IMG/VR virus record: IMGVR_UViG_3300035557_000069
Length of the DNA: 64,000 nt
Strand: one strand, 5' to 3'
Origin: a virus
The translations under genes and the position numbers were made by a program. The stretch's first letter is position 1, and each line of letters starts with the position of its first letter. Under the pieces are notes generated by a model. The model saw nothing but the letters and a program-made list of their open reading frames with translations, was not told the DNA's origin and did no database searches. Below are positions 8,839-64,000 of this stretch, piece by piece.

Positions 8839-10664
8839 TAGATTTTGATTGGTGTAAACTCGTATCTATTGCCCTTATAGATACGACCGTTGTTTGTTTC
8901 ATCAACAACCAATGAAACGGCTAGTTTTGCTACGTCAAGTTGAACAATCTGATTATTCATACTAACGATATCAGAAGAACTTGGATTGATGGTAAAGACA
9001 AAGGAACCAGTGGAGAGTCTTACGATGTTCAAGTTATTTATGACCATTCTACCGTGTTCATAATCAACTGTTCCTGTGTTACGTAGGTCATAACGAACAC
9101 CATTGATTAGTGTATAAAGCAACAAGTTACCTTGCGAATCATCATCGATATAGCAAACGTTACCGAAGTTATCAATGAAGAACGGTGTAGAAATGATAGA
9201 ACCAGCCTCAAACGGATTACCAATGTTGATATCATAGTTGGTAGCAACATTGTAAATCGGTGTCACTGTTCTATGCATCTTCATACGTGGCACACAGGAT
9301 GTGATACAAGGATCGACTTCCTCAACCTTTCTACTTACATAGGAACCACGAAGAATACGATTGAACTGTTGGAGTTCTGTGACATTCATATACAACATGG
9401 TACTAGTGATAGAGGTAATCAAATCACCCGCGGATTTTGCTGTAAGCGTTGGATCATAATAAGCAACAACATTCAATTCCACGTTGATGTATTCAGGATT
9501 GATGAACTCGGGAATAATCGTCACCATCTTATATGGATTGATATAGTCTGTGATAATATCCTGTTGCTCTTGATATGTCAGTGTCTTACCAGATGTTGTT
9601 TGCGCACTGATATACACCTTACCGTAAACGGGTGGTACCATCGTCTCACCACCCCAGACAGAAACAGCCTTGATAGACGAAACTCTATTCAGGATGAACG
9701 TTTCATAGTCCAAGGCAGTCACGATTCTGTTCTGTGAGGCATAGAAGTTCGGCGCGTTGTATCGAATCTCTTCTGTGGTCTCCGCTTCTCTACCACCATA
9801 AACAGCGGAAGTGATTGTCAAGTTTTCGATGGTGCCAGTACCGAGAGAGGGGCCCGTGTATGTGATATTGGAGATACCATTAGCACCGGATCCATTGGAA
9901 ACCATGTAGTTTGTGGTGATGATGTTACCATTAACTAGAGCCTTACCAAGAATACCATCACCGAAGGACAGTTCATACTCTCCGTTTTCCTTTTCGCCAA
10001 GATAATATACTTTGCTATTCTCGTCCACATCAGCGAAGTTTGAGACAGGTAGATAAGTCTCATAAAGAGTTGAAGGTGGTTCTTGAACGCGGACCGTTAA
10101 AGTCTCGGTATCAATGTTCGGGTTTGGCAGAATAAACGTGGTTGCGTTATCTACAGAAGAGTAGACAAAACGATTAATGATGGGACTGCCTTCGATAATC
10201 TCAACGTTTGAAAACTTGTAAACAGATGGATCAGTAGTATCGATGCCCGCCGTATAGTCCTGTGTTGTGTAGAAGGTATACTTTACACTGTCCTTGATGC
10301 CGGAAAATGTGGAATACTTGGGTAGAGTGATATATGGAACTGTTACATCAGCATTTGTAACAACGAAGTTTGCTGTGGTCTTGGCACAAGTATAACTTCT
10401 TGGTGTATAACCAAGTTCTTTGGCTCTGGAAACTACAGAGGAACGCTTGCTGGCAGTATCAAGGAAGGTTTCATTGATTGCCATGTTCGTATAGATGTTG
10501 TTGTAATATGTGTTTGCTGTTAGAATGTCCAACAGGATAGACATATTACTACCCTCAAAGTCATAGTCCGAGAATTGGCTTTGCCCCTTTAAAAACTCCT
10601 TGAGGCTCGCTTTGATTTCATCGAACTCCAGACTGCCTACTTGTATTTTTCTGTTAGTTGTCAT
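8838..10664 (-). CDS. gp6: Baseplate wedge subunit gp6, 608 aa.
   Basis: The N-terminal region (FLKGQSQFSDYDFEGSNMSILLDILTANTYY, SKRSSVVSRAKELGYTP) matches T4 gp6 (EFLDYDFEGSRLNVLCDLLAYNTLY, RSSVVQAAQDNGYLP). It lies between gp25 and gp7-like, as in T4-type phages. Confidence 0.75.
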   Translation of the reverse strand: MTTNRKIQVGSLEFDEIKASLKEFLKGQSQFSDYDFEGSNMSILLDILTANTYYNNIYTNMAINETFLDTASKRSSVVSRAKELGYTPRSYTCAKTTANFVVTNADVTVPYITLPKYSTFSGIKDSVKYTFYTTQDYTAGIDTTDPSVYKFSNVEIIEGSPIINRFVYSSVDNATTFILPNPNIDTETLTVRVQEPPSTLYETYLPVSNFADVDENSKVYYLGEKENGEYELSFGDGILGKALVNGNIITTNYMVSNGSGANGISNITYTGPSLGTGTIENLTITSAVYGGREAETTEEIRYNAPNFYASQNRIVTALDYETFILNRVSSIKAVSVWGGETMVPPVYGKVYISAQTTSGKTLTYQEQQDIITDYINPYKMVTIIPEFINPEYINVELNVVAYYDPTLTAKSAGDLITSITSTMLYMNVTELQQFNRILRGSYVSRKVEEVDPCITSCVPRMKMHRTVTPIYNVATNYDINIGNPFEAGSIISTPFFIDNFGNVCYIDDDSQGNLLLYTLINGVRYDLRNTGTVDYEHGRMVINNLNIVRLSTGSFVFTINPSSSDIVSMNNQIVQLDVAKLAVSLVVDETNNGRIYKGNRYEFTPIKI

Positions 10665-11053
10665 CGTACTCTTTTGAGGGCCACGTTAACTGTGAGTGGA
10701 CTTGTTGTATTGACTATGTTAAAGATGATGGTGATATCGGCGGAACTTTCGTCGGGATTAAATACCGTTCTTACATCAATAACACGGACTCGGGGTTCGA
10801 AGTTTGTAATAACGTCTCTAATCTCCTGGTTGATAACAGCTATCAATCCCGGCGTGATTAGTTCAAACATCATACCCATAACAGAAGAACCAATCTCTGA
10901 ATGAAACGCTCTTTCATAGTGCTTCGTGAGAATGAGGTTCTTCACGGCATTTTTAATAGCATTATCATCCGTCTTCACCATCAAATCACCGGTATTGGGA
11001 TGTGGTTCAAACGAAAGGTCGATATCTGTAAATGTACGTGTCTTAATAGCCAT
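10661..11053 (-). CDS. gp25: Baseplate wedge protein gp25 (gpW/lysozyme-like family), 130 aa.
   Basis: Size and pattern (IDLSFEP, KNAVKNLILT, ITNFEPRV) are typical of gp25/GPW. It overlaps the gp6 start by 4 nt. Confidence 0.75.
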   Translation of the reverse strand: MAIKTRTFTDIDLSFEPHPNTGDLMVKTDDNAIKNAVKNLILTKHYERAFHSEIGSSVMGMMFELITPGLIAVINQEIRDVITNFEPRVRVIDVRTVFNPDESSADITIIFNIVNTTSPLTVNVALKRVR

Positions 11054-11071: not shown

Positions 11072-13693
11072 TTAGTAAATCTTTGCGATAGTATAAACGT
11101 CTTTAGAGACTCTTGAGTGATTATTCATCGTAAATTGTTGCGGCGGCTTTCTGTTACCAGCAGAATTAAAGCTGATATGAATCCAACCCGGACCTGATGC
11201 ATACTCTAGCAACAACTGGTCATAAGGTACAAGCTTCTGAATCTCTAGACAGCGATAGTACAGGTCAGACCTTGACATTCCCGGGAAGGAGATATCCACT
11301 GCTTGTCCTTTGTTGTGTTGTGAAGTAGCGGTGCCCAAGCGAAGTCCAGAATTAATCTTGACATTAGAGTACTTCTCATAAATCGGGTCAAGAATATTTG
11401 TAGCCAGAGCCTTGAGATTGCAGTAAATCTGGTCAGCACGAAGCCCGTTCTGTTTGACAAGCTTTCTAGAACCATTGTCTGTGAGTTGTGCCAAGGTGAA
11501 ATACTTACTAATCTTCTCTTGATAGTTGAACGTGGTGGTGCCTTCTGGTATACCACACTCTCCCATCTTGACTTCTGCGTTGTTCTCTGTTGGTGCAACT
11601 TCCTCTGTGACAGGAGGCTTCTCTGTCAAGTCTTCTACAGTAGCAGTGCCCGACTCAATACGGGACTCTTTATGTGCTAGGATTTCTTCCTGTGTTCCGT
11701 CTTCTGGTGTCTCATAGAGCGCCGCTTCCTCATCACCACGCGAGTTAACAAGCAACTCACCAAGCTGTACTCTCTCACCACCAACAGCACTTGTAAACGG
11801 AGGTGAAGCTGGTGAGGCGGCACTTGCGGGGGTTGAGGCTCCAGAGTTTTGGAGTATGACTGGAGCATCGACCGCGTACTTCGCTCCACCCTGCACACTG
11901 AATAGCGCACCTGAGGAGAGACTGCAATTAGCACCAGACTTCACATTTGCGTTTGCACCTGCTTCAACGTTTGTATTGGCACCCGCCTTGATATCAATGT
12001 TCCCCGCAACGTTTAAACCAAAGTTACCACCGACATTGAGAGACATATTACCACCCGCGGTGAGCGTCAAGTCATCACCCGCATTGATAATAGCACTGTC
12101 ATGGACGTTGATTGTCGTTGTGCCATTGACTTCAATATCAAGGGTATCAGATACCTTTAAAGTCTTCGCACCCTCGACACAGACATGGGCATTACCCATA
12201 ACATGGACATATCCATTACGCTCTAGAATCGTATAATCATCACCAACAGTTCGTCTTACCATCGTTCCGTTGTGGTCAACTTCCCAGAACGTTCCCTTGG
12301 TATGATAGGTATGAATACGCTCATTACCAGGCGTATCATCCCATTCTTGCACATGTCCCGACTCGGATTGCCAGACGTTATTGAACGGATACTTGGCGTT
12401 GTATGGAGTCTTGGCTTGGTCCCATGCTCCAAAGGCACCGTTGGCGACTTCAACACCCTTATGCTCTGCCGTCTCCTTGAAGTAAACAATCGTGTTACGA
12501 ATGTTCTGGTGCCGTGCCAGTCTGTTTGTATCAGGTTCATTCAAGTGTGTGGTCAGTGGATACTTATTGTTCGGGTCCTTGAAGCCTAATTGACCGTTAA
12601 ATCTCTTGCGCGTATAGAGTGCGGAAGATGTTGTGGCAGGATTAGATTCAGCAACACCACCCGGAGCGTTCTTAATGGCTTCGTCTTGCGCCGCCATACT
12701 CTGTGGCGTCTCTGTAATGGAACCGTCTTTTTGAGGAATACCATCTTTAAGGAACCAAGTCTGCTCTGCCTTACGGCGATTGCGAAGACCCTTTTCAACA
12801 GAAGAGCCTGCGCGAATCTTGAAGGTAAGAAGATAGTCGGCCGCCTTTTGGTATTCCCCAGCGTTTAAACCAGACTCATTTACAAATTGTTTAACACCAC
12901 CTCCACCTGCATTATAAGCAAGGTCAACGAGTGCATCATACATTGACTGAGTGATAGGAACACGAACAGCGTTCTTTACAGCAGGTTCAAACTCTTTCTT
13001 CAACTTATATTGAAACAAGTCTTCCGCTTGTGCAACTGTCAGTGGTGCTGTATTTGCTGTAACGGGAGAGTTGTCTTTTAAGTACGTATTACCAACACCG
13101 ATAGTCCACTTACCCTCCGATGGGTTCTTGGGATTATCATTGTATGGATAAATCAAACCATCATTTCTTCGTCTCTGATAACCACCTTCATTCTTGGCAA
13201 GTTGTGTGGCACCTGCCGCGGAGATGCTGAACTCTTTTGCTGACTTGACTGGAATACCATCAGTGACGGCTTGAAGTTGTTCCTTCTCTTCTTTTTCTGT
13301 CTTTGGAGGAGGTTCTTCCGCCGGTGGTGGTGTGGGCTCCTGGACGTTTGATTGGTTGTTCAATAGTTCAAACGACTCTAGAGGTGGTTGTGTAGACTGT
13401 GGAATGCCTCCGAATGTACCAACAACGAAGGGCATTTGTTGATCGGGATCGATGAACTGAATAGCAACCCAAGTTCCCTCAACAACACCAACGGGCGCAT
13501 GACCTATTCCAGTCATTGCACCTGAAGTGGTGGGTTGTATCTTGTATGCCCAAGGCAGGTCTTCTGTCGGTAGCAGTGCCTTGTCGTGGGTGTGGAGTCC
13601 TAGTATACGAACTTTTACACGCCCAAGCATCAGAGGATCATTTCTGTCCTCTACACATCCAAGATAGAAACTAGGTATTTTCTGTATATTCAT
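11072..13693 (-). CDS. gp5: Baseplate central spike and cell-puncturing protein gp5-like, 873 aa. Domains in order: OB, GH24 lysozyme, beta-helix, then an extra C-terminal M15 (LAS) peptidase domain.
   Basis: The N-terminal OB-domain motif DPLMLGRVKVRILGLHTHDKALLPTEDLPWA matches gp5/VgrG OB. The lysozyme region NEGGYQRRRNDGLIYPYND..WTIGVGNTY ... DALVDLAYNAGGG resembles T4 lysozyme ([21 protein letters not shown]). V-x-G-x repeats (LNVGGNFGLNVAGNIDIKAGANTNVEAGANANV) form the beta-helix. The C-terminus (SQHNKGQAVDISFP...GPGWIHISF) is a VanY/M15-type zinc-peptidase signature. Confidence 0.8.
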   Translation of the reverse strand: MNIQKIPSFYLGCVEDRNDPLMLGRVKVRILGLHTHDKALLPTEDLPWAYKIQPTTSGAMTGIGHAPVGVVEGTWVAIQFIDPDQQMPFVVGTFGGIPQSTQPPLESFELLNNQSNVQEPTPPPAEEPPPKTEKEEKEQLQAVTDGIPVKSAKEFSISAAGATQLAKNEGGYQRRRNDGLIYPYNDNPKNPSEGKWTIGVGNTYLKDNSPVTANTAPLTVAQAEDLFQYKLKKEFEPAVKNAVRVPITQSMYDALVDLAYNAGGGGVKQFVNESGLNAGEYQKAADYLLTFKIRAGSSVEKGLRNRRKAEQTWFLKDGIPQKDGSITETPQSMAAQDEAIKNAPGGVAESNPATTSSALYTRKRFNGQLGFKDPNNKYPLTTHLNEPDTNRLARHQNIRNTIVYFKETAEHKGVEVANGAFGAWDQAKTPYNAKYPFNNVWQSESGHVQEWDDTPGNERIHTYHTKGTFWEVDHNGTMVRRTVGDDYTILERNGYVHVMGNAHVCVEGAKTLKVSDTLDIEVNGTTTINVHDSAIINAGDDLTLTAGGNMSLNVGGNFGLNVAGNIDIKAGANTNVEAGANANVKSGANCSLSSGALFSVQGGAKYAVDAPVILQNSGASTPASAASPASPPFTSAVGGERVQLGELLVNSRGDEEAALYETPEDGTQEEILAHKESRIESGTATVEDLTEKPPVTEEVAPTENNAEVKMGECGIPEGTTTFNYQEKISKYFTLAQLTDNGSRKLVKQNGLRADQIYCNLKALATNILDPIYEKYSNVKINSGLRLGTATSQHNKGQAVDISFPGMSRSDLYYRCLEIQKLVPYDQLLLEYASGPGWIHISFNSAGNRKPPQQFTMNNHSRVSKDVYTIAKIY

Positions 13694-13771: not shown

Positions 13772-15067
13772 TTAAGCAACTTGTTCTACTGGTGTCTGTA
13801 TAGTATCTTTTGCTAATTCAAGAAAGGTAAGGTGTCTGGTACCGGTGATATCGTGAGTTACACTGGTGATTAAGTATCTACCAGAAAGAACCTTATCTGT
13901 TACATCAGTCTCTTCCTTTGAAACACTCCTATCCTGATACACAATCAAGTCAACTGTTCTCCCCACCGTATAGTCCAAACGCCCCAAGACCTCAATCGTA
14001 GTCACCAAGGACTCTGTTCTCTTCAAGAGAGACATTCTTTGGAGACCATGATCGATGGGTAGCACAGGACTATTCTTATACAACTCTTTGTGGATGATCT
14101 GAGTTTTCATCTGTCCGTAAGGATGAAACTGCATCAGATTGCCCATTGTCTCATTCTCATTGAGTTGGACTTTCTTGAAGTCATCCTTACCAACGCGAGC
14201 CGCGAAGTTCAGAATCTTATTCTGGATATCAAAGTGATAGACGGCACCACCATAGTAGCCTTGTTGTAGTCTCTCTATGTAGTCATAGAAAACGGGCGTG
14301 GACATATCCAGAACCTTCTGATATTCCGCTTGGATATTCTCTACCGATTTCTCTTGTCTAGACGCTTGGTCTTTCTTGAAAATCTGGATAGGAACGCCCG
14401 AATATAGAGCATCAATAGAGGCAAAGATAAACCCTTCGTTTCCCTCAAAGAATACATAATTCGGATTATTATTATAGTTAATGGCTCTGAGGGCACAGTA
14501 ATAAATGTTCTCTATAGGTGTCCAGAAGTTTGAAGTATAGATTTCGTCGTTAGTGGTAGGCTCAATCGCCACATTCTTATTGGTCTTCAAGCCTGTGTTT
14601 GTGCTGATTAACGTCTTGACGGTATCCGAAATCTTTCCTTTAAACGTCTGACTAATTTTTGTATTCATATCCACATAGGCCTCAATCGACATAAAGTGGA
14701 GTGTGAACATAACTTTCTTTTCTGCCGCGTTCTCACGTCCTTCCATCTTATAGAGGTGGAAGATATTTTCGCGTCTCATATCAAAGTCATCACTACGGGG
14801 CGTCTCAATATCCAAGACTAGAAGTTCCTCACCAATCAAAGGAAACGCTTGACCAAGAGCCGTTGTATCAGTCAGTGTAATAGCACCCGTGATAAACGGA
14901 CACATAATGTTCTCATAGATGACAATCTTGGAAATCAGATTGGTTACATCCACTCTGCGATTGTTTGCTATGATGATGGCTGAGTTTATCTTAATAGAAC
15001 CAGGCTCAAACTTTTCCGCATTGGAAGATGTTTGTGCTGGATCTGTTACGACGGTATTATCACTCAC
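13772..15067 (-). CDS. Baseplate hub protein, possibly gp27-like, 431 aa.
   Basis: It lies between gp53 and gp5. The segment NNRRVDVTNLISKIVIYENIMCPFITGAITLTD loosely resembles the T4 gp27 N-terminus ([32 protein letters not shown]) as I recall it. Its start overlaps the gp53 stop. Confidence 0.4.
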   Translation of the reverse strand: MSDNTVVTDPAQTSSNAEKFEPGSIKINSAIIIANNRRVDVTNLISKIVIYENIMCPFITGAITLTDTTALGQAFPLIGEELLVLDIETPRSDDFDMRRENIFHLYKMEGRENAAEKKVMFTLHFMSIEAYVDMNTKISQTFKGKISDTVKTLISTNTGLKTNKNVAIEPTTNDEIYTSNFWTPIENIYYCALRAINYNNNPNYVFFEGNEGFIFASIDALYSGVPIQIFKKDQASRQEKSVENIQAEYQKVLDMSTPVFYDYIERLQQGYYGGAVYHFDIQNKILNFAARVGKDDFKKVQLNENETMGNLMQFHPYGQMKTQIIHKELYKNSPVLPIDHGLQRMSLLKRTESLVTTIEVLGRLDYTVGRTVDLIVYQDRSVSKEETDVTDKVLSGRYLITSVTHDITGTRHLTFLELAKDTIQTPVEQVA

Positions 15068-15624
15068 ACGATATCCTTAAAGTTTCTCAAGACCAATGTC
15101 AAGAGTTGTTTACTCAAGACCTTGATTTGGCGTCTTGACTCATTCATACTTAGTTCATAATCATAAGCGTAAATGGGATAGGCATCGGCAGACAGTTCCA
15201 GTTCCAGTGTTGTTAAATCACCATCATTGGAATTATACAAGGAAGGAGCAGTGGTACCATTTCCATTACTATCTTTATAACCCACTATTGTTCGCATAGC
15301 AGTTTCAACGGAACCATATTTCTCGGTGATATATCTATCAAACACCTCTGTTGACATAATGAAATCTTTACGATAATCATAGATATCATTCAAGAGCATA
15401 ATAATCCAGTTATAGTGCGGCGAACCATAAAGCTTTTCAGAAATAATCTCTGGTGTATCACCATCTTGAATATGATAGTAATCATAGAGAGTGATATTGT
15501 CCAAGACCTCTTTCTTGAAACGAATATTGGTGGTTATATCAACAAGCTTGACATATTCAGCGGGTCTCTTATAACCCGGAGGTGAAACTTGATAGATAAT
15601 TCTAGGAAAGTTCTTAAAGTACAC
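15064..15624 (-). CDS. gp53: Baseplate wedge subunit gp53, 186 aa.
   Basis: EKLYGSPHYNWIIMLLNDIYDYRKDF resembles T4 gp53 ANAIYGNPQLYWVLLMCNDNYDPYYGW. C-terminal RRQIKVLSK resembles T4 LRQIKIIAK. Size matches (T4: 196 aa). Confidence 0.75.
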   Translation of the reverse strand: MYFKNFPRIIYQVSPPGYKRPAEYVKLVDITTNIRFKKEVLDNITLYDYYHIQDGDTPEIISEKLYGSPHYNWIIMLLNDIYDYRKDFIMSTEVFDRYITEKYGSVETAMRTIVGYKDSNGNGTTAPSLYNSNDGDLTTLELELSADAYPIYAYDYELSMNESRRQIKVLSKQLLTLVLRNFKDIV

Positions 15625-15627
15625 TTG

Positions 15628-16728
15628 TTAGAACCCTTTATCAATAGAATCCTTGGTGTGAATACCAAGTTCTTGGAACGTCAAAGAGACGCGAATATAG
15701 TTAGGTACACCATTACTATGAGTGACCCATTGGCCTTCTGGTGTATAGTTGACGTTCATATCCTTTAGTACACACGTACCAACTCTGAAGACATATTCAT
15801 TTTCTGTGCCTGTGTCCGTGTAGAATGTGATATCAAACTCGGAAGGATAAACGAAGGTAAATCTATCTTCAGCCAAAAACTCTGGATGCATATGGTACTT
15901 GAACGTCTTAATAATACCTTTGATGGTCGCCGCTTCAGCCGCGGTCTTGGGATAAAACGTGTAGTCAATATCAAAAGACCTGAAGTTAACACCACTGAAA
16001 ATCATTTCCTTCTTGGTGTTAGCCGCTAGACCAGTGGCAGCCGAGACAGCACCAGAATCTGCGGCATTCGAAAGACCAAGCGCGGCACCAGCCGCAATGC
16101 TTGAGGCTGTTCTAGAACTGGTATTATTCAATGTATCGATGGGATTAGATACGGCACCACCAAGACGATTAATCAAGTCATACATCATTGTGCTAGTCGC
16201 ATCCCATTCCATAGAGTAGCGACTAACAAGAGTGTTGGGCATGGGTAGCTGAATGGCATTCTTGAGACGTTTGGTTTCTCTGGTAGCCGTACCCGCAACG
16301 AGATAAGGAATGGACGTGGCAGCGGCAACAGCGCCGCCCGCGATACCACCCTTAGCTATATTCGATGCCCCTTGAGCCTCTTTACCACCAAGAAAAGCAC
16401 TGAGAGAAAACTTAGATACAGCTCCCACAACGGCGCCACCCACGACCTGATTAGACGCCACCTTTTCAGCAGAGAGATTGGCGTTCTTGGCTCTTTGTTC
16501 AGTCAGAACCATATTAGCTTTTTCTCTCTCAAATGGATCTAACTCAACGATGGGTTGTGTTGTTGCTGCCTTGGAGTTTTGCTGAACATTGATGTTAAAT
16601 AGAACCCACGATTTACCATATGTTGCCGCATTGTTACCAAACAAATCAGCAGGATATGTGGTAAATTCCACATCATACTTGCTGTTTTGTGTTCCACCTT
16701 TCGATGTGAGGGCGTTAAAGTCTGCCAT
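15628..16728 (-). CDS. Baseplate tail-tube junction protein of the gp19-fold family (gp48/gp54-like), 366 aa.
   Basis: The C-terminus (EYVFRVGTCVLKDMNVNYTPEGQWVTHSNGVPNYIRVSLTFQELG) resembles the tail-tube-family C-terminus (T4 gp19 ...IKGLWPTNVGELQLDWDSNNEIQTFEVTLALDYWE). It is the first gene of the leftward late operon that begins at the divergent promoter region. Confidence 0.45.
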   Translation of the reverse strand: MADFNALTSKGGTQNSKYDVEFTTYPADLFGNNAATYGKSWVLFNINVQQNSKAATTQPIVELDPFEREKANMVLTEQRAKNANLSAEKVASNQVVGGAVVGAVSKFSLSAFLGGKEAQGASNIAKGGIAGGAVAAATSIPYLVAGTATRETKRLKNAIQLPMPNTLVSRYSMEWDATSTMMYDLINRLGGAVSNPIDTLNNTSSRTASSIAAGAALGLSNAADSGAVSAATGLAANTKKEMIFSGVNFRSFDIDYTFYPKTAAEAATIKGIIKTFKYHMHPEFLAEDRFTFVYPSEFDITFYTDTGTENEYVFRVGTCVLKDMNVNYTPEGQWVTHSNGVPNYIRVSLTFQELGIHTKDSIDKGF

Positions 16729-48842: not shown

Positions 48843-50228
48843 TTAGATAACAACCTCGTACTTGCTGACAGTGTTCAGCATAACATTACGTGGATTAGTA
48901 ATGTCGCCAGAAAGTACACCCTTAAGGACCTGCGGGCTGTAACCACCAATCAACGCGGTGTTACCGTCGTTGCGGAGAACAGGTAGATTGGAACCACGCC
49001 CGTTCACGTTCCAGAACACAACAGCCGGCATCTTGTAACCGGAAGCCTCATACTGCTTACGGATACGATGATAGGTCGAGTCATCCGCCCCATTGATACA
49101 ACCATCGAACTGCATATCCGAAACAATCAGGATAGCATCAGGTAGTTCCGACTGGTCAAGACGGTTCTTCACTGCCGTGTTGAGGATGGTAGCGAACACT
49201 GCATCCAGATTAGTGTTCATACCCCATTCCGAACGCTCAATATAGTGCATCTTCTGCCCGAGCGTGGTGTACTTGGAAATGTCCTTGAACTCAGGACGCT
49301 CGGAGAACGTCACGAACTGGTTCTTGAACTGACCCTCATTGCGTTCAGCACAATAGATACCCAGACCAACAGCAATATCGATTGCCTGAATAGACCCCGA
49401 GACCGGCGTGAACATGGAACCAGAAACGTCGATGACAGGCAGAATGTTACGTTGCTTGCCTTCGAACAGGTCAGGAAGAGCATTCCACTGAACATCCGCG
49501 GAAGCATTGTGTTGACGGAGACCACGGACGATATCGTGGGGGAATACAGCACCCGCCTTGATAGTGTCCTTACCTTCCTTCACACGATTGATGAAGGCAA
49601 CAAAACGCTCGTTGTCGTTACGTCCGAACGCCTTACCGTAGCGAGACATAGCCACAGAAGGGACCGAGGAATACTTGATAACATCCCAACGCTTCGCGCA
49701 CATGTCCTGCTCAACAGTCCTGGACAGACCAACAATCAGCTTACGGAAGCGAGACTCGGAGAGACCCATTTCCTTCGCCAGCTTGAAGAACGAAGCCTTA
49801 CGGCGTGGAACCCACTTTGCCGCCAGACCATTGCCTTCGCGAAGAGCGTTAGCATAGACACGGATCGCGTTAGCCTCACAAGGAGTACCAACGAGTTCCA
49901 GAACGTCATCCCAACGACCGTACTTCGGCACCAGGTCGATGTTGCGATTGACGTAGGTAGGATGGGTGTTAGCCAGATACTTGAGAGCCTTACGGAAGGC
50001 AGAACGCTCCCCCGCGCCGCCGCGGCAGTCACGACCCCAGAACACGACCTGCAGGGCAGTCTTCGCGTCTTCGGTCAGAGCCGAACGAAGGTCATTGGTG
50101 ATATCCTCACGACGGTACTGAACCATCTTGAAGAACAGATCCACGCATGGATCAAGGGAGGAACGATTGGTGACCGAACCGTTTTCGGTCAGAGTGGTGT
50201 TGTTGACGGCATTGAACAGAGTGGACAT
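48843..50228 (-). CDS. von Willebrand factor A domain protein with an ~250-aa helical N-terminal DUF2828-like region, 461 aa.
   Basis: MIDAS motif ILPVIDVSGSMFTP (DxSxS). The N-terminal VVFWGRDCRGGAGERSAFRKALKYLANTHP is typical of the DUF2828 family as I recall it. Confidence 0.65.
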   Translation of the reverse strand: MSTLFNAVNNTTLTENGSVTNRSSLDPCVDLFFKMVQYRREDITNDLRSALTEDAKTALQVVFWGRDCRGGAGERSAFRKALKYLANTHPTYVNRNIDLVPKYGRWDDVLELVGTPCEANAIRVYANALREGNGLAAKWVPRRKASFFKLAKEMGLSESRFRKLIVGLSRTVEQDMCAKRWDVIKYSSVPSVAMSRYGKAFGRNDNERFVAFINRVKEGKDTIKAGAVFPHDIVRGLRQHNASADVQWNALPDLFEGKQRNILPVIDVSGSMFTPVSGSIQAIDIAVGLGIYCAERNEGQFKNQFVTFSERPEFKDISKYTTLGQKMHYIERSEWGMNTNLDAVFATILNTAVKNRLDQSELPDAILIVSDMQFDGCINGADDSTYHRIRKQYEASGYKMPAVVFWNVNGRGSNLPVLRNDGNTALIGGYSPQVLKGVLSGDITNPRNVMLNTVSKYEVVI

Positions 50229-50635: not shown

Positions 50636-50938
50636 TTAATTTAATTGTACATTTCCCGAACCTGTAACGACTACACCAACGGGGCATCCCGCTACAGGGT
50701 CAGACATTCGTCCTGCGCCACGCGAAGAAATCTGGACGTTCGGCGAAAACCCCACCATAAGAGTTGGATGACCGCAAGTGCAAATTGCCATATCACCTGC
50801 ACGAACCGTGCCCAGATTGTTGGTCAAAACAGTAGTATCGCCGGTGATGAAGAAACCCACAACACCGCGGCAGGTCGGATCAGCATGGCAACAACACACC
50901 GCGGTGACAATATCACCAACTCTAGCTTGACCTAACAT
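50636..50938 (-). CDS. PAAR-repeat spike-tip protein (T4 gp5.4-like), 100 aa.
   Basis: Repeated PAAR-type motifs RVGDIVTAVCCCH..., TVRAGDMAICTCGHP and AGRMSDPVAGCPVG. Size is typical. Confidence 0.7.
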   Translation of the reverse strand: MLGQARVGDIVTAVCCCHADPTCRGVVGFFITGDTTVLTNNLGTVRAGDMAICTCGHPTLMVGFSPNVQISSRGAGRMSDPVAGCPVGVVVTGSGNVQLN

Positions 50939-51655: not shown

Positions 51656-51831
51656 AAAAGGGTAACCCGTTTTTTTCTGTTTCCAAGACAAAACGGGTAA
51701 AATCTCAGTCGCGGTTAAGCGGCAAGGGCAAAGTCATACTCGCCTTTTATTGCTTTTGTCTGATATACGGCCATGACATTCCGGACTGTCCATCTTCGTA
51801 CTTGTTACCCAGTCGAAACCTTGGCACCCCC
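51656..51831 (-). ncRNA. ssrA: tmRNA (ssrA) 5' acceptor piece: acceptor 5' strand GGGGGUG (51831-51825), spacer CCAAG, D-loop analogue GUUUCGACUGGG (51819-51808), then a downstream region ending in an intrinsic terminator hairpin (51665-51698 plus a U-tract).
   Basis: Read from the sequence. Spacing and sequence match the E. coli tmRNA 5' end GGGGCUG-AUUCU-GGAUUCGACGGG. GGGGGUG pairs with the 3' strand CACCUCC at 51931-51937, with a G3·U wobble. The terminator is ACCCGUUUU...AAAACGGGU plus CUUUU. Confidence 0.55.
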
Positions 51832-51926
51832 ATCAACAGCATACTAGCAGAAGCCTCTAATCTCGCCCCAGTGGGCATAACACATGGCCTCAGTGCCCCG
51901 ATGTGTCCGGGATGATAGTATGCTCT

Positions 51927-52010
51927 TGGTGGAGGTGGCGGGATCGAACCCGCGTCCTAAGCACCTTTCGGTTGACTTCATACAGTCATATTGCTATTTA
52001 GTTATTACTA
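51927..52010 (-). ncRNA. ssrA: tmRNA (ssrA) 3' piece: T-arm, acceptor 3' strand and ACCA end (core 51927-51957), with short hairpins upstream. It lies 95 nt upstream of the 5' acceptor piece, so the gene looks circularly permuted (two-piece). The upstream boundary is uncertain.
   Basis: Minus strand reads GGAC-GCGGG-UUCGAU-CCCGC-CACCUCC-A-CCA. The E. coli tmRNA 3' end is GGACGCGGGUUCAACUCCCGCCAGCUCCACCA. A73 discriminator. No canonical tRNA 5' half lies within 100 nt upstream. Confidence 0.55.
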
Positions 52011-53755: not shown

Positions 53756-55180
53756 TCACAAAATGGGTTTATTTGCGTTCTCCCGAATCTTCTCAAAGTT
53801 AGTCAAGGCAACAAACGGCTCATACAGTTTCTTCGTCATAGTGTAGACCAAGTTCAGGATAATCTTGTCTTCCCAATTCTGGTCATCCAGACGAACGGTT
53901 TTTGCCTTGCCTTCCTCGTCCTCCACGACAGTGAGGCGACCACGTTTGCTTTCTTTGCCCGGTGCTTCCTTGAAAACATCAATCCATTTACCATTGACAA
54001 GCAGGGCGCAACACTTCATGGCGAATCCGTAGGTGTCGCGGTTAACGTGTTGGAGCAGGGCACCACCCATCCCGAATGCTACGTTGTCAGCACTGAAACC
54101 TGCCCACTTGAGAGTAGCTAGGATTTCGTTGATGCTGGCTTTGTTGATGCCGTCTCCTTGAATAACGCGAACATAAGGAGGAAGCACTTTGTAACCCTTG
54201 CTGTTCCGAGTGGTACCAAACTTCTCTGCAAGGATTTCAACACAACGGCGTACGGTCGGAGCGGGGTCCCCCGAGTCCGGACGAATAACCAGAGTACCAC
54301 CAACTGCGCCGAGGGCTTCAACATCTGCCTTCAACTCGGTACCCCAGAGTTCACAAGCCTTGAAGATATCGTAGCTGTCCGAAACAACAGCCACAAGCTT
54401 GCCAGGACCGCCGTATTGTTTCAGCATATTGCGGTATGCTTCAACTTCGTTGTCTTTACCCCAACTGGTGATGGTGCTATGTTCAGCCGCAGGAATACTG
54501 AACCCTGCCATCTCTGCACCGTAGTAGTGATTGGCATACTGAACACCCTCAACAGTGTCCGAGCCGAGAAAGTTTACAAGGTGAGCCGCACCGCCGATAC
54601 CAGCAGTTTCACCCGAAGAGCAACCACGACCACCGAAGTCATGGAGTTTGAATGCGACTTGCTCTTGAACGTCACTGGTCCGCTCAAGGAAGTCTTTGAT
54701 GACTTTCTTGCAGTCATAACTTACAGTGGCGACCGAAGACGGGTACCAGATGGCGCGAAGTAGAGCCGTTTCGAGGAAGTTCACGATCCAAAAGCACACA
54801 GGATCAGTACAACATATCGTAAGTAAGCAATTACGATTTTTAATAACAGTTCCTTCAGGTAAAGCCTTGATAGTGACAGGCATATATCCTTTATACTCGG
54901 TTAGTATATACTCAAATCCTTGTTTATTGAAAGGAACCCCATGTGCTTTACAGAACAGTTCAGCCTCTTCAATATCAGCTTGAGTAATCGGGGTGAGTAG
55001 ATAGTCCTTGATGAACATCTGTAATCCAAAGAACACAAGATGATCTCCTCCTCTCGCTTCAATATACGATTGCATCCCCTCGGCTCCCGGAGGATATTGT
55101 CCTTGATGTTCAGTGTTATTGATACCGATTGAATGCGAGAATTTGTATGAATCGGTGGATAGTAGGATATTTCTTTTCAT
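53756..55180 (-). CDS. nadV: Nicotinamide phosphoribosyltransferase (NadV/Nampt), 474 aa.
   Basis: Length and motifs (STDSYKFSH N-terminus, IRPDSGDP, GDGI) are typical of Nampt. Confidence 0.85.
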   Translation of the reverse strand: MKRNILLSTDSYKFSHSIGINNTEHQGQYPPGAEGMQSYIEARGGDHLVFFGLQMFIKDYLLTPITQADIEEAELFCKAHGVPFNKQGFEYILTEYKGYMPVTIKALPEGTVIKNRNCLLTICCTDPVCFWIVNFLETALLRAIWYPSSVATVSYDCKKVIKDFLERTSDVQEQVAFKLHDFGGRGCSSGETAGIGGAAHLVNFLGSDTVEGVQYANHYYGAEMAGFSIPAAEHSTITSWGKDNEVEAYRNMLKQYGGPGKLVAVVSDSYDIFKACELWGTELKADVEALGAVGGTLVIRPDSGDPAPTVRRCVEILAEKFGTTRNSKGYKVLPPYVRVIQGDGINKASINEILATLKWAGFSADNVAFGMGGALLQHVNRDTYGFAMKCCALLVNGKWIDVFKEAPGKESKRGRLTVVEDEEGKAKTVRLDDQNWEDKIILNLVYTMTKKLYEPFVALTNFEKIRENANKPIL

Positions 55181-62324: not shown

Positions 62325-64000
62325 TCATACGGCGCATTGACCTCCCGCGCAAGCTTGTTCACCTTGTAAATCTGTGTTGTCATCCCGTTCTATAACTTTC
62401 TTTATATCAATGTCGTGCATAAACGACATAAGACGGTCATACTCTTCTTTACTACAATCTTCGAAGGGAGCCTGTGGATAGTCGTGACCATCGTAAGGAA
62501 GAACTGAGATGCCATTATAGAACTCACGATTGTTCCACATCCACTTAGCGACTCTATCCCATTCGTGTTGCTTGATAGAGATAGTGCAAGAGACGTTGTG
62601 ATGATTGGCACCCGTCCTATAACCAGGTCTGACCCACTCTGTATTGAACTTCTTAACACGCTCAAGCAAGTCCATGACCTTCTCATTGCGAAGGATAGAA
62701 CCTTCTGGAGCTTTCTGTGGGAACGAGATAACAGACTCCAAATGTGGTTTGAACTTACAATCTTCCACCAACTCCGGAAAGTTCTCACTCATATAATGGA
62801 ATAGGGCTTCATTCTTTCCGACTCGCACTCGACGGATATAGTAGTCGTTGTGCCATGCGTGAATACCCGAGGAAGAGCCGACCACTAAAGACGATGTACC
62901 AGACGGCTTAACTGTCGTTGTTCTAGCCGCCGGCTGAATGTTCAGAAGATAAGCATACTTCCCGTTCGTTACTCTGACAACCTCGGCTGCCTCGCGAAGG
63001 TCTAGCTTGAGTACAGCACCCGAGGCAATACCAGTCATACCCACACCAATCAACGCCTCCTTGTCTGTGGTGTCTTTCCAGATGTTTCTCAAGTAGTGAA
63101 AGTTAGTGTATGCGGCTTGGAGAGTTCCAATAACTGCCGCGGCCTCGCAACGGTCATTGAGGTCCTTCTGGTCTTCAACATCGGAGACATTGACCTCTGT
63201 AAGATTACAGAACTGGTAAGGGTTCAAAGAGATTTCGCAACAGGGGTTGGTGAATACGTCCTTGTCGTTTGTCCAATAGAAACCGGGCTCACCCGCACCA
63301 GAGTTTTTGACAACTTCCCAAAGCTTCTGGAATTCTTCTTCTGTGACTTCACCGCGTGGTAGCACAACAGAGTTGTTTGACCTACCGCGTTGGGGGTTCA
63401 GTTCGTACCAAGAGTTTGTCTTACAGTAAAGCATATCAAGATCATCGCGGTCAAATCCACAAATCATGGCTGCCCGACGAATACCACCAGCTAGAACAGC
63501 GTCGGCAATGAAGCAACACATATCATAGACTTCTAGACTAGTGAGTTGGCGTCCGATGGCTCCGTTGAGAATAGAGCGCAAACGTTCAATGCAAATCTTG
63601 AGCGGATCGGGTCCAGGTGCCTTGCCACCAGATGTGACAAGACGGGCACCTTTCGGACGGATATCGCGGTAGTCAAACTCGGGATTAGACTTGCCCTTGG
63701 TATACGCTTTAATCAGGACCTTGATAGCATCCGCCCAACCTTCAATGCTATCACCAATCAGATAACGGCGTGGTCTGTCTGTTGGTCCGACGATAACAGG
63801 TAGCTTGCTGATATGATGCTTCTGAACAGAGAAACCAACACCCGTACCACCCAGAAGCAAAAACATCAGTTCTGCAAAGGCGAACGGATGCTCCATGGGC
63901 ATATAGGCGCAATTGAAAATCCTAGAATTGGAAATCTCAATAGGAGTACCAGCAAACTGCATTGACCTCATAGAGGGAAGCACTTTGCGTGGTATGATGA
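62325..64000 (-). CDS. Ribonucleotide reductase catalytic (large) subunit, partial. Its N-terminus lies beyond the right edge.
   Basis: Active-site motif NPCCEISL (N-x-C-x-E at the radical site). LGGTGVGFS. Redox-Cys region IFNCAYMP. C-terminal Cys pair (ACAGGQCAV). About 220 N-terminal residues expected for NrdA/NrdJ are missing, which fits truncation at 64000. Confidence 0.65.
   Translation of the reverse strand, partial: IIPRKVLPSMRSMQFAGTPIEISNSRIFNCAYMPMEHPFAFAELMFLLLGGTGVGFSVQKHHISKLPVIVGPTDRPRRYLIGDSIEGWADAIKVLIKAYTKGKSNPEFDYRDIRPKGARLVTSGGKAPGPDPLKICIERLRSILNGAIGRQLTSLEVYDMCCFIADAVLAGGIRRAAMICGFDRDDLDMLYCKTNSWYELNPQRGRSNNSVVLPRGEVTEEEFQKLWEVVKNSGAGEPGFYWTNDKDVFTNPCCEISLNPYQFCNLTEVNVSDVEDQKDLNDRCEAAAVIGTLQAAYTNFHYLRNIWKDTTDKEALIGVGMTGIASGAVLKLDLREAAEVVRVTNGKYAYLLNIQPAARTTTVKPSGTSSLVVGSSSGIHAWHNDYYIRRVRVGKNEALFHYMSENFPELVEDCKFKPHLESVISFPQKAPEGSILRNEKVMDLLERVKKFNTEWVRPGYRTGANHHNVSCTISIKQHEWDRVAKWMWNNREFYNGISVLPYDGHDYPQAPFEDCSKEEYDRLMSFMHDIDIKKVIERDDNTDLQGEQACAGGQCAV

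What the first reader, a model, noticed from the sequence alone, without database searches (positions are those of the whole stretch)
11072..13693. gp5 spike with lysozyme plus an additional C-terminal M15 peptidase domain (an evolved-VgrG-like architecture)
T4 gp5 has OB, GH24-lysozyme and beta-helix domains. This 873-aa homologue adds, after the beta-helix and an acidic linker, a C-terminal domain with the LAS/M15 zinc-peptidase signature (SQHNKGQAVD ... WIHIS). That gives two cell-wall hydrolase activities on one tail spike. An enzymatic domain C-terminal to the needle tip, where the PAAR protein normally caps, resembles the cargo domains of evolved VgrGs in type VI secretion.
Basis: partly seen in the sequence, partly recalled or inferred. 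Interest (0 to 1): 0.55.

Follow-up and report, generated by a model that had tools for sequence, protein, structure and literature searches.

The report
Phage tail spike with extra peptidase
The cell-puncturing tail spike of this uncultured T4-like phage carries, besides the usual lysozyme, a second and very probably active zinc peptidase tethered to its far end; this layout is common in environmental phages, recalls cargo-carrying spikes of bacterial type VI secretion, and I found no paper describing it.

Summary
It is a gp5 central-spike orthologue (OB fold, GH24 lysozyme, beta-helix) in a conserved baseplate gene block.

The "acidic linker" is not a plain spacer. It holds a near-invariant L-x-V-x-[TS]-R...Y-E-T-P-E-D-G element, and the folded module already starts near residue 668.

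The window also encodes a stand-alone PAAR protein (50636-50938, minus strand), so the peptidase accompanies the cap and does not replace it.

The same module is fused to gp5 in cultured phages Cr30, pf16, BUCT-ZZ01 and Melnitz. It is fused to PAAR in PA5oct, Vibrio 1.244.A, KoPa-5 and Milchi. About 110 of the 150 best 50%-identity clusters are spike fusions.

The most likely function is a tip-tethered peptidoglycan peptidase that helps the tail cross the cell wall. It works like an evolved VgrG but is not a member of that family. It is real, widespread, visible in databases and experimentally untested, so interest is moderate.

The parts
11072..13693 (-). Whole ORF, 873 aa: gp5-type central spike protein with a C-terminal M15 peptidase.
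   Evidence: ORF. T4 gp5 PDB hits at about 5e-40. PHROG 430 at 6e-93. 120 of 120 listed homologues share the architecture.
13379..13672 (-). N-terminal OB-fold domain (residues 8-105).
   Evidence: Pfam Gp5_OB 2.1e-21. Aligns to T4 gp5 residues 9-115.
12719..13243 (-). GH24 lysozyme domain (residues about 151-325). E169 and T197 are retained and the catalytic Asp is probably D186. Two insertions (about 172-184 and 187-191) are unique to this protein.
   Evidence: Pfam Phage_lysozyme 2.3e-23. PDB lysozymes 9kbs/6et6 at about 1e-19. Alignment with the closest homologues.
12419..12718 (-). Inter-domain region (residues 326-425). The first part is variable. It is followed by an invariant G370-F371-x-D-P...Y-P...E-P-D-T-N-R-L-A-R segment that leads into the helix.
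   Evidence: Per-column conservation. Consensus of alignment A3. The Melnitz gene split falls just upstream of this motif.
11840..12418 (-). Triple-stranded beta-helix needle region (residues 426-618).
   Evidence: phmmer alignment to T4 gp5 residues 378-540. Gp5_trimer_C 24.1 bits, which is below threshold, plus DUF2345 and Gp5_C repeats.
11693..11839 (-). Acidic, Pro/Ala-rich tether (residues 619-667).
   Evidence: Composition and charge. pLDDT 60-66 in model 2.
11696..11755 (-). Conserved tether motif L647-x-V649-x-[TS]-R652...Y660-E661-T-P-[ED]-[DE]-G666.
   Evidence: L647 in 116/119, V649 in 113/119, R652 in 118/119, Y660 in 113/119 and E661 in 118/119 sequences. YE-type elements are seen in PAAR-M15 fusions.
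11558..11692 (-). Helical N-terminal extension of the peptidase module (residues 668-712).
   Evidence: Model 2 gives helices at 668-681 and 686-690 and a strand at 695-699, with pLDDT 83-92. BFVD matches span about 240 columns.
11075..11557 (-). LAS/M15A zinc-peptidase core (residues 713-873).
11294..11323 (-). S791-Q-H793-N-K-G796-Q-A798-V-D800: the SxHxxGxAxD zinc-binding motif (H793, D800).
   Evidence: Invariant in 121 of 121 sequences. Aligns to the SLHYEGRAVD motif of ShhN.
11171..11206 (-). E830 (candidate general base, nt 11204-11206) through W837-I-H839-I-S841 (third zinc ligand H839).
   Evidence: E830, W837 and H839 are invariant. They align to the YYES...HIHCS segment of ShhN.
11420..11557 (-). 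Cys713 and Cys758 (the end codons of this span): a co-occurring pair and a probable disulfide.
   Evidence: Both present in 109 sequences, both absent in 10, one only in 2.
50636..50938 (-). Stand-alone PAAR protein (100 aa), the presumed cap of the spike.
   Evidence: Pfam PAAR_motif 6.8e-08, 33.1 bits against a cut-off of 27. Own PAAR HMM 7.8e-07.
10661..11053 (-). gp25-like baseplate wedge gene immediately downstream.
   Evidence: PHROG 261 at 5.6e-42. GPW_gp25 in the contig record.
8838..10664 (-). gp6-like baseplate wedge gene.
   Evidence: PHROG 219 at 3e-158.
13772..16728 (-). Upstream baseplate genes: phrog_350 tail protein (13772-15067), gp53-like (15064-15624) and gp48-like tail tube cap (15628-16728).
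   Evidence: PHROGs. The same order is seen in related contigs.

Best explanation
The ORF encodes the central spike (gp5 orthologue) of the contractile tail of an uncultured T4-like aquatic phage.

Proposed parts:
- The N-terminal OB domain seats the trimer in the baseplate hub.
- A GH24 muramidase follows.
- A triple-stranded beta-helix forms the needle, capped by a separately encoded PAAR protein.
- From the distal end of each of the three chains a tether of about 50 residues leads to a module of about 205 residues. This module is a helical extension plus a LAS/M15A zinc peptidase.

Proposed mechanism:
- When the sheath contracts, the needle is driven through the outer membrane. The three tethered peptidases sit next to the tip, so they are the first enzymes to reach the periplasm.
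- There they cut peptide stems or cross-links of peptidoglycan.
- The GH24 domain, further back on the spike, cuts glycan strands.
- Together they open a hole for the tail tube.

Shown here: domain identities, the fold, invariance of the catalytic residues, the fixed C-terminal position, the presence of PAAR, and the alternative fusion of the module to PAAR in other phages.

Inferred: catalytic activity, the bond cleaved, retention of the domain in the virion, and the order of events. The conserved tether motif is inferred to be functional, as a docking or latching segment, but its role is unknown.
For: - gp5 identity and baseplate synteny.
- H793, D800, H839, E830 and R785 are invariant in 121 sequences. 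They align to the Zn/Glu site of ShhN and are kept across 150 clusters at 50% identity.
- The Cys713/Cys758 pair co-occurs, which fits an extracytoplasmic enzyme.
- Relatives of the domain are free-standing M15 endolysins of Pelagibacter, Stenotrophomonas and Bacteroides phages. The module is therefore of a lytic-enzyme lineage.
- In about 18 of 45 GH24-less clusters, and in phage pf16, there is no room for any lysozyme. There M15 is the only enzyme on the spike.
- The same module is fused to PAAR in PA5oct gp239, Vibrio 1.244.A, KoPa-5 and Milchi. The GenBank record notes ESI-MS/MS detection for PA5oct gp239.
- In the genomes checked, the module sits on gp5 with a stand-alone PAAR (this window, Cr30) or on PAAR with a gp5 that lacks it (KoPa-5, Milchi), not on both.
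- A C-terminal enzymatic domain and a PAAR cap are functionally compatible in T6SS: VgrG2b needs PAAR3 (PMC7376260).
Against: - No activity, zinc or virion data exist for this protein or any gp5-M15 fusion.
- The single-sequence Pfam M15_3 score is below the gathering threshold.
- The first His of the classical HxH motif is Trp837 here. The chemistry may therefore differ from M15A DD-peptidases, and the Hedgehog N-domain, the next-best structural match, is not an established peptidase.
- Three globular domains of about 23 kDa near the tip could hinder membrane piercing. They might be cleaved off or folded back before use.
- Model 2 gives only pLDDT 60-66 for the tether motif, so its placement is unknown.
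- The GH24 domain has unusual insertions in its catalytic hairpin.
Confidence: 0.68

Rival explanations
1. The M15 module is removed during tail maturation, like the C-terminal intramolecular chaperone domains of some tailspikes and fibres. It would be absent from the infectious particle and serve only in folding or trimerisation of the helix, or be released into the infected cell.
For: - The tether carries a near-invariant short motif that could be a processing site.
- T4 gp5 itself is proteolytically processed during assembly (established knowledge).
- A bulky domain at the needle tip looks awkward for piercing.
Against: - A pure chaperone would not need an invariant zinc triad, Glu and Arg over 38-85% identity.
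- The fold is not that of the S74-type chaperone domains.
- The PAAR-M15 fusion of PA5oct is flagged as detected by ESI-MS/MS in its record.
- The module also sits on PAAR, which needs no trimerisation chaperone.
Confidence: 0.12
2. The domain is the phage's end-of-cycle lysin. It would be active from within the cell after release by cleavage or internal translation start, and its fusion to a structural gene would be incidental.
For: - The closest free-standing relatives are annotated endolysins (M15) of podophages and siphophages.
- Milchi's PAAR-M15 gene is annotated as an endolysin.
- No other endolysin was identified in this 64-kb window.
Against: - In about 113 of the 150 best clusters the domain lies directly after a gp5 helix, at the extreme C-terminus.
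- The gene context is baseplate genes, not holin or spanin genes.
- The internal Met710 is not conserved and lies inside the structured module.
- The window covers only part of the genome, so a separate endolysin cannot be excluded.
Confidence: 0.08
3. The domain is a catalytically silent peptidoglycan-binding or anchoring module. It would use a Hedgehog-like pseudo-active site to hold the spike tip in the wall rather than cut it.
For: - Hedgehog N-domains, which keep the zinc site without an accepted protease role, are the best sequence-profile match in the PDB and rank second in the fold searches after 1lbu.
- Trp837 replaces the first His of the HxH motif.
Against: - The candidate general base E830, R785 and H859 are conserved together with the zinc ligands.
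- Homologues serve as sole lysins of small phages.
Confidence: 0.07

Closest known systems
Bacteriophage T4 gp5 (tail-associated lysozyme, central spike; PDB 1K28, 1PDL) with its gp5.4 PAAR cap
   Same: OB domain, GH24 lysozyme and beta-helix in the same order. phmmer gives about 5e-40. The gene lies among baseplate genes, and a PAAR protein is encoded in the genome.
   Different: - T4 gp5 ends with the helix at 575 aa. This protein adds a tether and a peptidase module of about 205 residues.
- PAAR is encoded 37 kb away instead of nearby.
- The lysozyme carries two extra loops.
Evolved VgrG spikes of type VI secretion, e.g. P. aeruginosa VgrG2b with a C-terminal metallopeptidase effector (PMC7376260) and V. 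cholerae VgrG3 (own knowledge)
   Same: - An enzymatic domain follows the gp5-like needle.
- It works with a PAAR cap.
- Cargo can sit on either the spike or PAAR.
- Some gp5-M15 relatives even carry a VgrG3-like_C domain, Pfam PF21277 at 7e-53.
   Different: - The context is a phage baseplate, not a T6SS locus.
- No gp27-like domain (Phage_GPD) is fused to the spike.
- No immunity gene is expected.
- The cargo serves the phage's own entry, not interbacterial killing.
PAAR-M15 fusion proteins of large myophages (PA5oct gp239, Vibrio phage 1.244.A NVP1244A_059, KoPa-5 gp124, Milchi CDS0185)
   Same: The same M15 module, 36-45% identical, at the C-terminus behind an acidic, Pro-rich tether. They are part of the same spike complex. 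PA5oct gp239 is flagged as ESI-MS/MS-detected.
   Different: The carrier is PAAR (one copy per spike) instead of gp5 (three copies). The L-x-V-x-T-R part of the tether motif is not evident in these proteins.
Streptomyces albus G zinc D-Ala-D-Ala carboxypeptidase (PDB 1LBU, MEROPS M15A) and the Hedgehog/DD-peptidase (LAS) fold
   Different: - Only 14-16% identity.
- Trp replaces the first His of the HxH motif.
- The N-terminal extension differs.
- The substrate bond is unknown.
Tail devices with two lytic domains: Anabaena phage A-1(L) hub gp15 (PMC10966104) and phi29 gp13 (lysozyme + M23; own knowledge). Also distal enzymatic domains on central spikes: the phage 812 petal domain (PMC13433997)
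   Same: More than one wall-degrading activity on one tail protein, and an enzyme placed at the distal end of a central spike.
   Different: The carriers differ (a hub protein, a tail knob, or a coiled-coil spike of a Gram-positive phage), and so do the enzyme families. None is a gp5 beta-helix with a LAS peptidase behind it.

Membership tests
T4 gp5-type central spike protein | N-terminal gp5 OB-fold domain | tested here: met
   Pfam Gp5_OB 2.1e-21, 77 bits against a cut-off of 25. Aligns to T4 gp5 residues 9-115.
T4 gp5-type central spike protein | C-terminal triple-stranded beta-helix region | tested here: met
   phmmer aligns residues 426-587 to T4 gp5 378-540, domain E about 1e-15. Pfam Gp5_trimer_C alone is sub-threshold, 24.1 against 30.9. 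Trimer formation itself was not tested.
T4 gp5-type central spike protein | Lysozyme domain between OB and helix, with the catalytic Glu/Asp/Thr | tested here: inconclusive
   Pfam Phage_lysozyme 2.3e-23. E169 and T197 align with the family consensus. The Asp is probably D186, but two insertions unique to this protein disrupt the hairpin alignment.
T4 gp5-type central spike protein | Encoded within the baseplate gene module | tested here: met
   Flanked by gp48-, gp53-, gp25- and gp6-like genes. The same order is seen in related contigs.
T4 gp5-type central spike protein | Maturation cleavage into gp5* and gp5C, and incorporation into the virion | not testable with these tools
   No sequence rule exists for the cleavage. 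The only hint is that Melnitz splits the gene just upstream of the invariant GF-x-DP motif.
Peptidase M15 / LAS (Hedgehog/DD-peptidase fold) | H-x(6)-D plus a distal His as the zinc triad | tested here: met
   H793, D800 and H839 are invariant in 121 of 121 sequences. They align to the zinc-site residues of ShhN.
Peptidase M15 / LAS (Hedgehog/DD-peptidase fold) | The fold | tested here: met
Peptidase M15 / LAS (Hedgehog/DD-peptidase fold) | Score above the Pfam Peptidase_M15_3 (PF08291) gathering threshold | tested here: not met
   This sequence scores 16.6-18.5 bits against 23.2. Homologues pass: P0140 at 26.7 and P0191 at 24.9, and PF08291 is precomputed for many. It is best filed as a divergent subfamily of the superfamily.
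Peptidase M15 / LAS (Hedgehog/DD-peptidase fold) | Zinc-dependent cleavage of a peptidoglycan peptide bond | not testable with these tools
   Needs biochemistry.
Evolved VgrG (T6SS) | gp27-like and gp5-like modules fused in one chain | tested here: not met
   The ORF starts with the gp5 OB domain. No gp27-like (Phage_GPD) domain was detected in it.
Evolved VgrG (T6SS) | T6SS gene context (TssB/C, Hcp, TssM and others) | tested here: not met
   The neighbours are phage baseplate, head-completion and replication genes.
Evolved VgrG (T6SS) | Effector domain C-terminal to the needle, used together with a PAAR cap | tested here: met
   The M15 module follows the helix. A PAAR gene is in the window.

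The most novel reading that the evidence does not exclude
Phage spike complexes use the same cargo logic as type VI secretion. A mobile 'tether + M15 peptidase' cassette is carried at the very tip, and it is attached interchangeably to the C-terminus of gp5 (three copies) or of PAAR (one copy). The middle lysozyme slot is swapped independently (GH24, GH19, lysozyme2, VgrG3-like, or none). The conserved Y-E-containing tether element would act as a latch that docks or silences the peptidase until the tip enters the periplasm. This would make 'evolved' spikes and PAARs an ancestral phage trait rather than a T6SS invention. It would also contradict the published view that phage PAARs are unfused (PMC7824862).
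Probability: 0.3. Interest if true: 0.65.

Novelty: new variant of a known kind. Interest (0 to 1): 0.45.

Why it matters
How contractile-tail phages of Gram-negative bacteria cross the peptidoglycan layer is modelled almost entirely on T4, where a single lysozyme sits behind the needle.

This protein represents a large environmental family, with at least about 110 clusters at 50% identity among the best 150. In this family a zinc peptidase is tethered in front of, or beside, the needle tip, and in some members it is the only enzyme.

Three consequences follow if it is active and retained in the virion:
- The first enzymatic event in the periplasm for many marine and freshwater T4-like phages would be peptide cleavage, not glycan cleavage.
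- The modular 'spike or PAAR carries cargo' principle of T6SS would also operate in phages.
- The family would offer compact, probably disulfide-stabilised Gram-negative-directed peptidases with natural outer-membrane delivery partners, which is of interest for engineered lysins.

Cultured carriers exist (Cr30, pf16, BUCT-ZZ01, Melnitz, PA5oct), so all of this can be tested directly.

Tried and rejected
- Megablast of the gene against 50,697 phage records found nothing. The window has no close cultured relative. The best gp6 match is about 37% aa identity to Pelagibacter myophages.
- Single-sequence phmmer of the C-terminal 219 aa against the PDB found nothing. A family profile was needed.
- NCBIfam has no model for the C-domain.
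- 'The peptidase replaces PAAR' is rejected, because a stand-alone PAAR ORF lies at 50636-50938.
- 'The linker is a featureless acidic spacer' is rejected.
- 'Internal start at Met710 gives a free lysin' is rejected. Position 710 is not conserved and lies inside the structured module.
- Whether the tether motif docks onto the peptidase is inconclusive.
- A statistical link between the tether of gp5-M15 and the cultured PAAR-M15 proteins is weak. It is significant only for metagenomic P0190 and P0211, at about 3e-5 in a 14-sequence search. For PA5oct, KoPa-5 and Milchi the similarity was seen only by eye.
- Several ~325-aa 'YE motif-M15' proteins that I first took for PAAR fusions are not. P0122 matches the query residue for residue across the aligned linker, so it is probably the query's own C-terminal fragment. 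P0140 carries a beta-helix (DUF2345) remnant.
- An apparently ORF-free 1.9 kb at 871-2818 is a long minus-strand ORF that runs off the left end of the window.
- Eight full-text literature searches found no description of gp5-M15 or of phage PAAR-M15.
Full report
**1. Observation**

A single ATG-to-TAA ORF of 873 aa occupies window 11072-13693, on the minus strand. The plus-strand reading is full of stops. SQHNKGQAVD is residues 791-800 and WIHIS is residues 837-841.

Pfam gives Gp5_OB at residues 37-104 (2.1e-21) and Phage_lysozyme (GH24) at 189-310 (2.3e-23). It also gives sub-threshold Gp5_trimer_C, DUF2345 and Gp5_C hits over residues 452-568. Peptidase_M15_3 hits residues 761-813 at only 16.6 bits, against a gathering score of 23.2. 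phmmer against the PDB finds T4 gp5 (1k28, 1pdl and others) at about 5e-40, with separate alignments for the OB domain and the beta-helix. PHROGs assigns the protein to 'baseplate hub subunit and tail lysozyme' (phrog_430, 6e-93). Residues 724-860 are assigned independently to an endolysin family (phrog_894, 7.5e-17).

The neighbours, on the same strand, are gp48-like, gp53-like, a phrog_350 tail protein, then this gene, then gp25-like and gp6-like genes. The same order is found on related metagenome contigs.

**2. Is the C-terminal domain really an M15/LAS peptidase?**

All 120 homologues listed by the large protein search end with this domain. These homologues are 37-70% identical to the query over the whole protein, most of them over 98-100% of its length. 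In an alignment of 121 C-domains (38-85% identical), the following residues are invariant: R785, S791, H793, G796, A798, D800, L829, E830, W837 and H839. S841, H859, F854, T855 and M856 are conserved at 97% or more.

A profile of the domain finds Sonic hedgehog N-terminal domains as its only PDB relatives (E 0.004). SQHxxGQAVD aligns to SLHYEGRAVD, and LLLEY...WIHIS aligns to YYES...HIHCS. From established knowledge of ShhN, these are the zinc ligands His/Asp/His and the active-site Glu of the LAS superfamily.

There are two caveats. The single sequence does not reach Pfam's threshold, although several homologues do. And the first His of the classical HxH motif is Trp837.

**3. Anatomy beyond the first description**

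The segment called an 'acidic linker' (616-712, net charge -14) is not uniform. Residues 647-666 carry a near-invariant motif, L-x-V-x-[TS]-R...A...Y-E-T-P-[ED]-[DE]-G. L647 occurs in 116 of 119 sequences, V649 in 113, R652 in 118, Y660 in 113 and E661 in 118.

A second model covering residues 630-873 places helices at 668-681 and 686-690 and a strand at 695-699, with pLDDT 83-92. The folded module therefore begins near residue 668. The motif region itself has pLDDT of only 60-66. BFVD matches span about 240 columns of this longer module in gp5-OB proteins and in shorter 'Peptidase M15A, C-terminal' proteins.

Cys713 and Cys758 are both present in 109 sequences, both absent in 10, and singly present in 2. 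This suggests a disulfide and hence an extracytoplasmic working environment.

The GH24 domain keeps E169 and T197, and probably D186. It has two insertions in the Glu-Asp-Thr hairpin that none of the 13 closest homologues share.

**4. PAAR**

A search with a PAAR HMM that I built, followed by Pfam, identifies a stand-alone 100-aa PAAR protein at 50636-50938 on the minus strand (PAAR_motif 33.1 bits against a cut-off of 27). The peptidase therefore accompanies the cap and does not replace it.

Caulobacter phage Cr30 has the same arrangement, with the PAAR gene directly after its gp5-M15 gene. In T6SS, the evolved spike VgrG2b, which ends in a metallopeptidase effector, still requires its cognate PAAR3 (PMC7376260). 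A C-terminal domain and a cap are thus functionally compatible.

**5. Distribution**

tblastn of the C-domain against 50,697 phage records finds 132 records in three settings.
- At the end of gp5 genes:
  - Cr30: 701 aa, with Phage_lysozyme2 instead of GH24.
  - pf16: 510 aa, with no lysozyme domain at all.
  - BUCT-ZZ01: 939 aa, with GH19.
  - Melnitz: the gene is split.
- At the end of PAAR proteins of about 330 aa:
  - PA5oct gp239. Its GenBank note reads 'ESI-MS/MS ... muramoyl-pentapeptidase'.
  - Vibrio phage 1.244.A.
  - KoPa-5.
  - Milchi.
- As free-standing 'peptidase M15' lysins of Pelagibacter, Stenotrophomonas, Bacteroides and other phages, and of microviruses.

The PAAR and gp5 assignments were verified with Pfam. 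In the genomes inspected, the module is on gp5 with a plain PAAR, or on PAAR with a gp5 that lacks it.

An exhaustive profile search of 1.84 billion representatives gives 8,933 clusters at E of 1e-3 or better and 342 at 1e-30 or better. Of the best 150, about 113 have the domain directly after a gp5-type helix, and nearly always at the extreme C-terminus.

Among 45 OB-helix-M15 clusters without GH24, about 18 have fewer than 65 residues between the OB domain and the helix, which leaves no room for a lysozyme. Seven carry a VgrG3-like C-terminal domain (PF21277, best E 7e-53), five carry GH19, and two carry Phage_lysozyme2. The middle enzymatic slot is therefore a swappable cassette, while the terminal M15 is constant.

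**6. Mechanism**

The best-supported reading is a virion-associated peptidoglycan peptidase tethered to the distal end of the spike. On contraction, the needle with its PAAR cap passes the outer membrane and the three M15 domains arrive in the periplasm first. They would cleave peptide stems or cross-links, and GH24 would cleave glycan strands.

- Shown: homology, fold, invariant catalytic residues, fixed position, PAAR co-encoding, and the alternative PAAR carrier.
- Inferred: activity, bond specificity, retention in the virion, timing, and any role of the tether motif.

Rival readings are listed with their tests. They are a maturation-cleaved assembly domain, an end-of-cycle lysin, and a silent binding domain. 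Each is disfavoured mainly by three facts: the invariance of the full catalytic constellation, the baseplate context, and the existence of spikes where M15 is the only enzyme.

**7. Comparison with what is known**

The protein is a member of the gp5 spike family. The OB domain, the helix and the gene context were tested and met. The lysozyme catalytic geometry is inconclusive.

The C-domain belongs to the LAS/M15 superfamily by fold and zinc triad. It is a divergent subfamily that falls below the PF08291 threshold.

It works like an evolved VgrG but is not one, because it has no gp27 fusion and no T6SS context.

Tail proteins with two lytic activities are already known (A-1(L) hub, PMC10966104; phi29 gp13, own knowledge). 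So are distal enzymatic domains on central spikes (phage 812 petal domain, PMC13433997).

Eight full-text searches found no description of a gp5-M15 or a phage PAAR-M15 architecture. A comparative review of jumbo phages states that their PAAR proteins are stand-alone and unfused to effectors (PMC7824862). The fusions verified here contradict that statement. On the other hand, UniProt and InterPro already label some of these proteins 'Peptidase M15A, C-terminal', and the PA5oct record notes the pentapeptidase similarity. The composition is therefore visible in databases.

**8. Verdict**

- The feature is real, conserved and widespread. I class it as a variant of a known kind (the gp5 spike) that has not been characterised experimentally or, as far as I could find, discussed in the literature.
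- Interest is moderate. It is not surprising in its components. It is useful as a directly testable extension of the T4 entry model and of the link between phages and T6SS.

Noticed in passing
window 51715-51987 (-): A permuted (two-piece) tmRNA gene: Rfam RF04321 at 104.6 bits against a gathering score of 47. ARAGORN also calls it, with tag peptide GEYDFALAA. It lies just upstream of an unannotated 235-aa ORF and the PAAR gene. To my knowledge phage-encoded tmRNAs are uncommon. A two-piece form may hint at an alpha- or beta-proteobacterial or cyanobacterial host.
   Followed up: partly
window 50636-50938 (-): The stand-alone PAAR gene lies about 37 kb from gp5, among non-structural genes (NAMPT at 53756-55180, a DUF2828/DUF7788 protein at 48843-50228). 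In T4 and Cr30 it sits next to gene 5.
   Followed up: partly
window about 13100-13190 (-), residues about 169-197: The GH24 domain has two insertions (about 13 and about 5 residues) inside the catalytic Glu-Asp-Thr hairpin. They are absent from the 13 closest homologues. Whether the lysozyme is still active is unclear.
   Followed up: partly
homologues P0033, P0038, P0040, P0045, P0048, P0112; alignment A3; L001, L003: The enzymatic slot between the OB domain and the helix is swapped among relatives: GH24, GH19 (PF00182), Phage_lysozyme2 (PF18013), the T6SS VgrG3-like C-terminal domain (PF21277, 7e-53), or nothing. The terminal M15 stays constant throughout.
   Followed up: partly
L002 3962-7005 (Methylophilales phage Melnitz): In Melnitz the spike is encoded by two genes. 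The split falls shortly before the invariant G-F-x-D-P...Y-P...D-T-N-R-L-A motif that precedes the helix. This resembles the gp5*/gp5C cleavage of T4 and may mark the equivalent boundary in this family.
   Followed up: no
window 1 to about 2900 (-): A minus-strand reading frame is open across the whole of 780-2900 (at least 706 codons; not checked further left) and is absent from the ORF list, most simply because it runs off the left end of the window. It is probably a large tail or baseplate gene downstream of the wedge genes. The plus-strand ORFs called at 125-786 are likely spurious.
   Followed up: partly
window 53756-55180 (-) and 62325-63971 (-): An auxiliary metabolic gene (nicotinamide phosphoribosyltransferase, NAPRTase 4e-54) and a class II-like ribonucleotide reductase fragment. 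By my knowledge, such genes are typical of large aquatic myophages.
   Followed up: no
residues 713 and 758 of the ORF (nt 11555-11557 and 11420-11422): The two cysteines of the M15 core are gained and lost together across 121 homologues (109 both, 10 neither). This suggests a disulfide that stabilises the enzyme outside the cytoplasm.
   Followed up: partly
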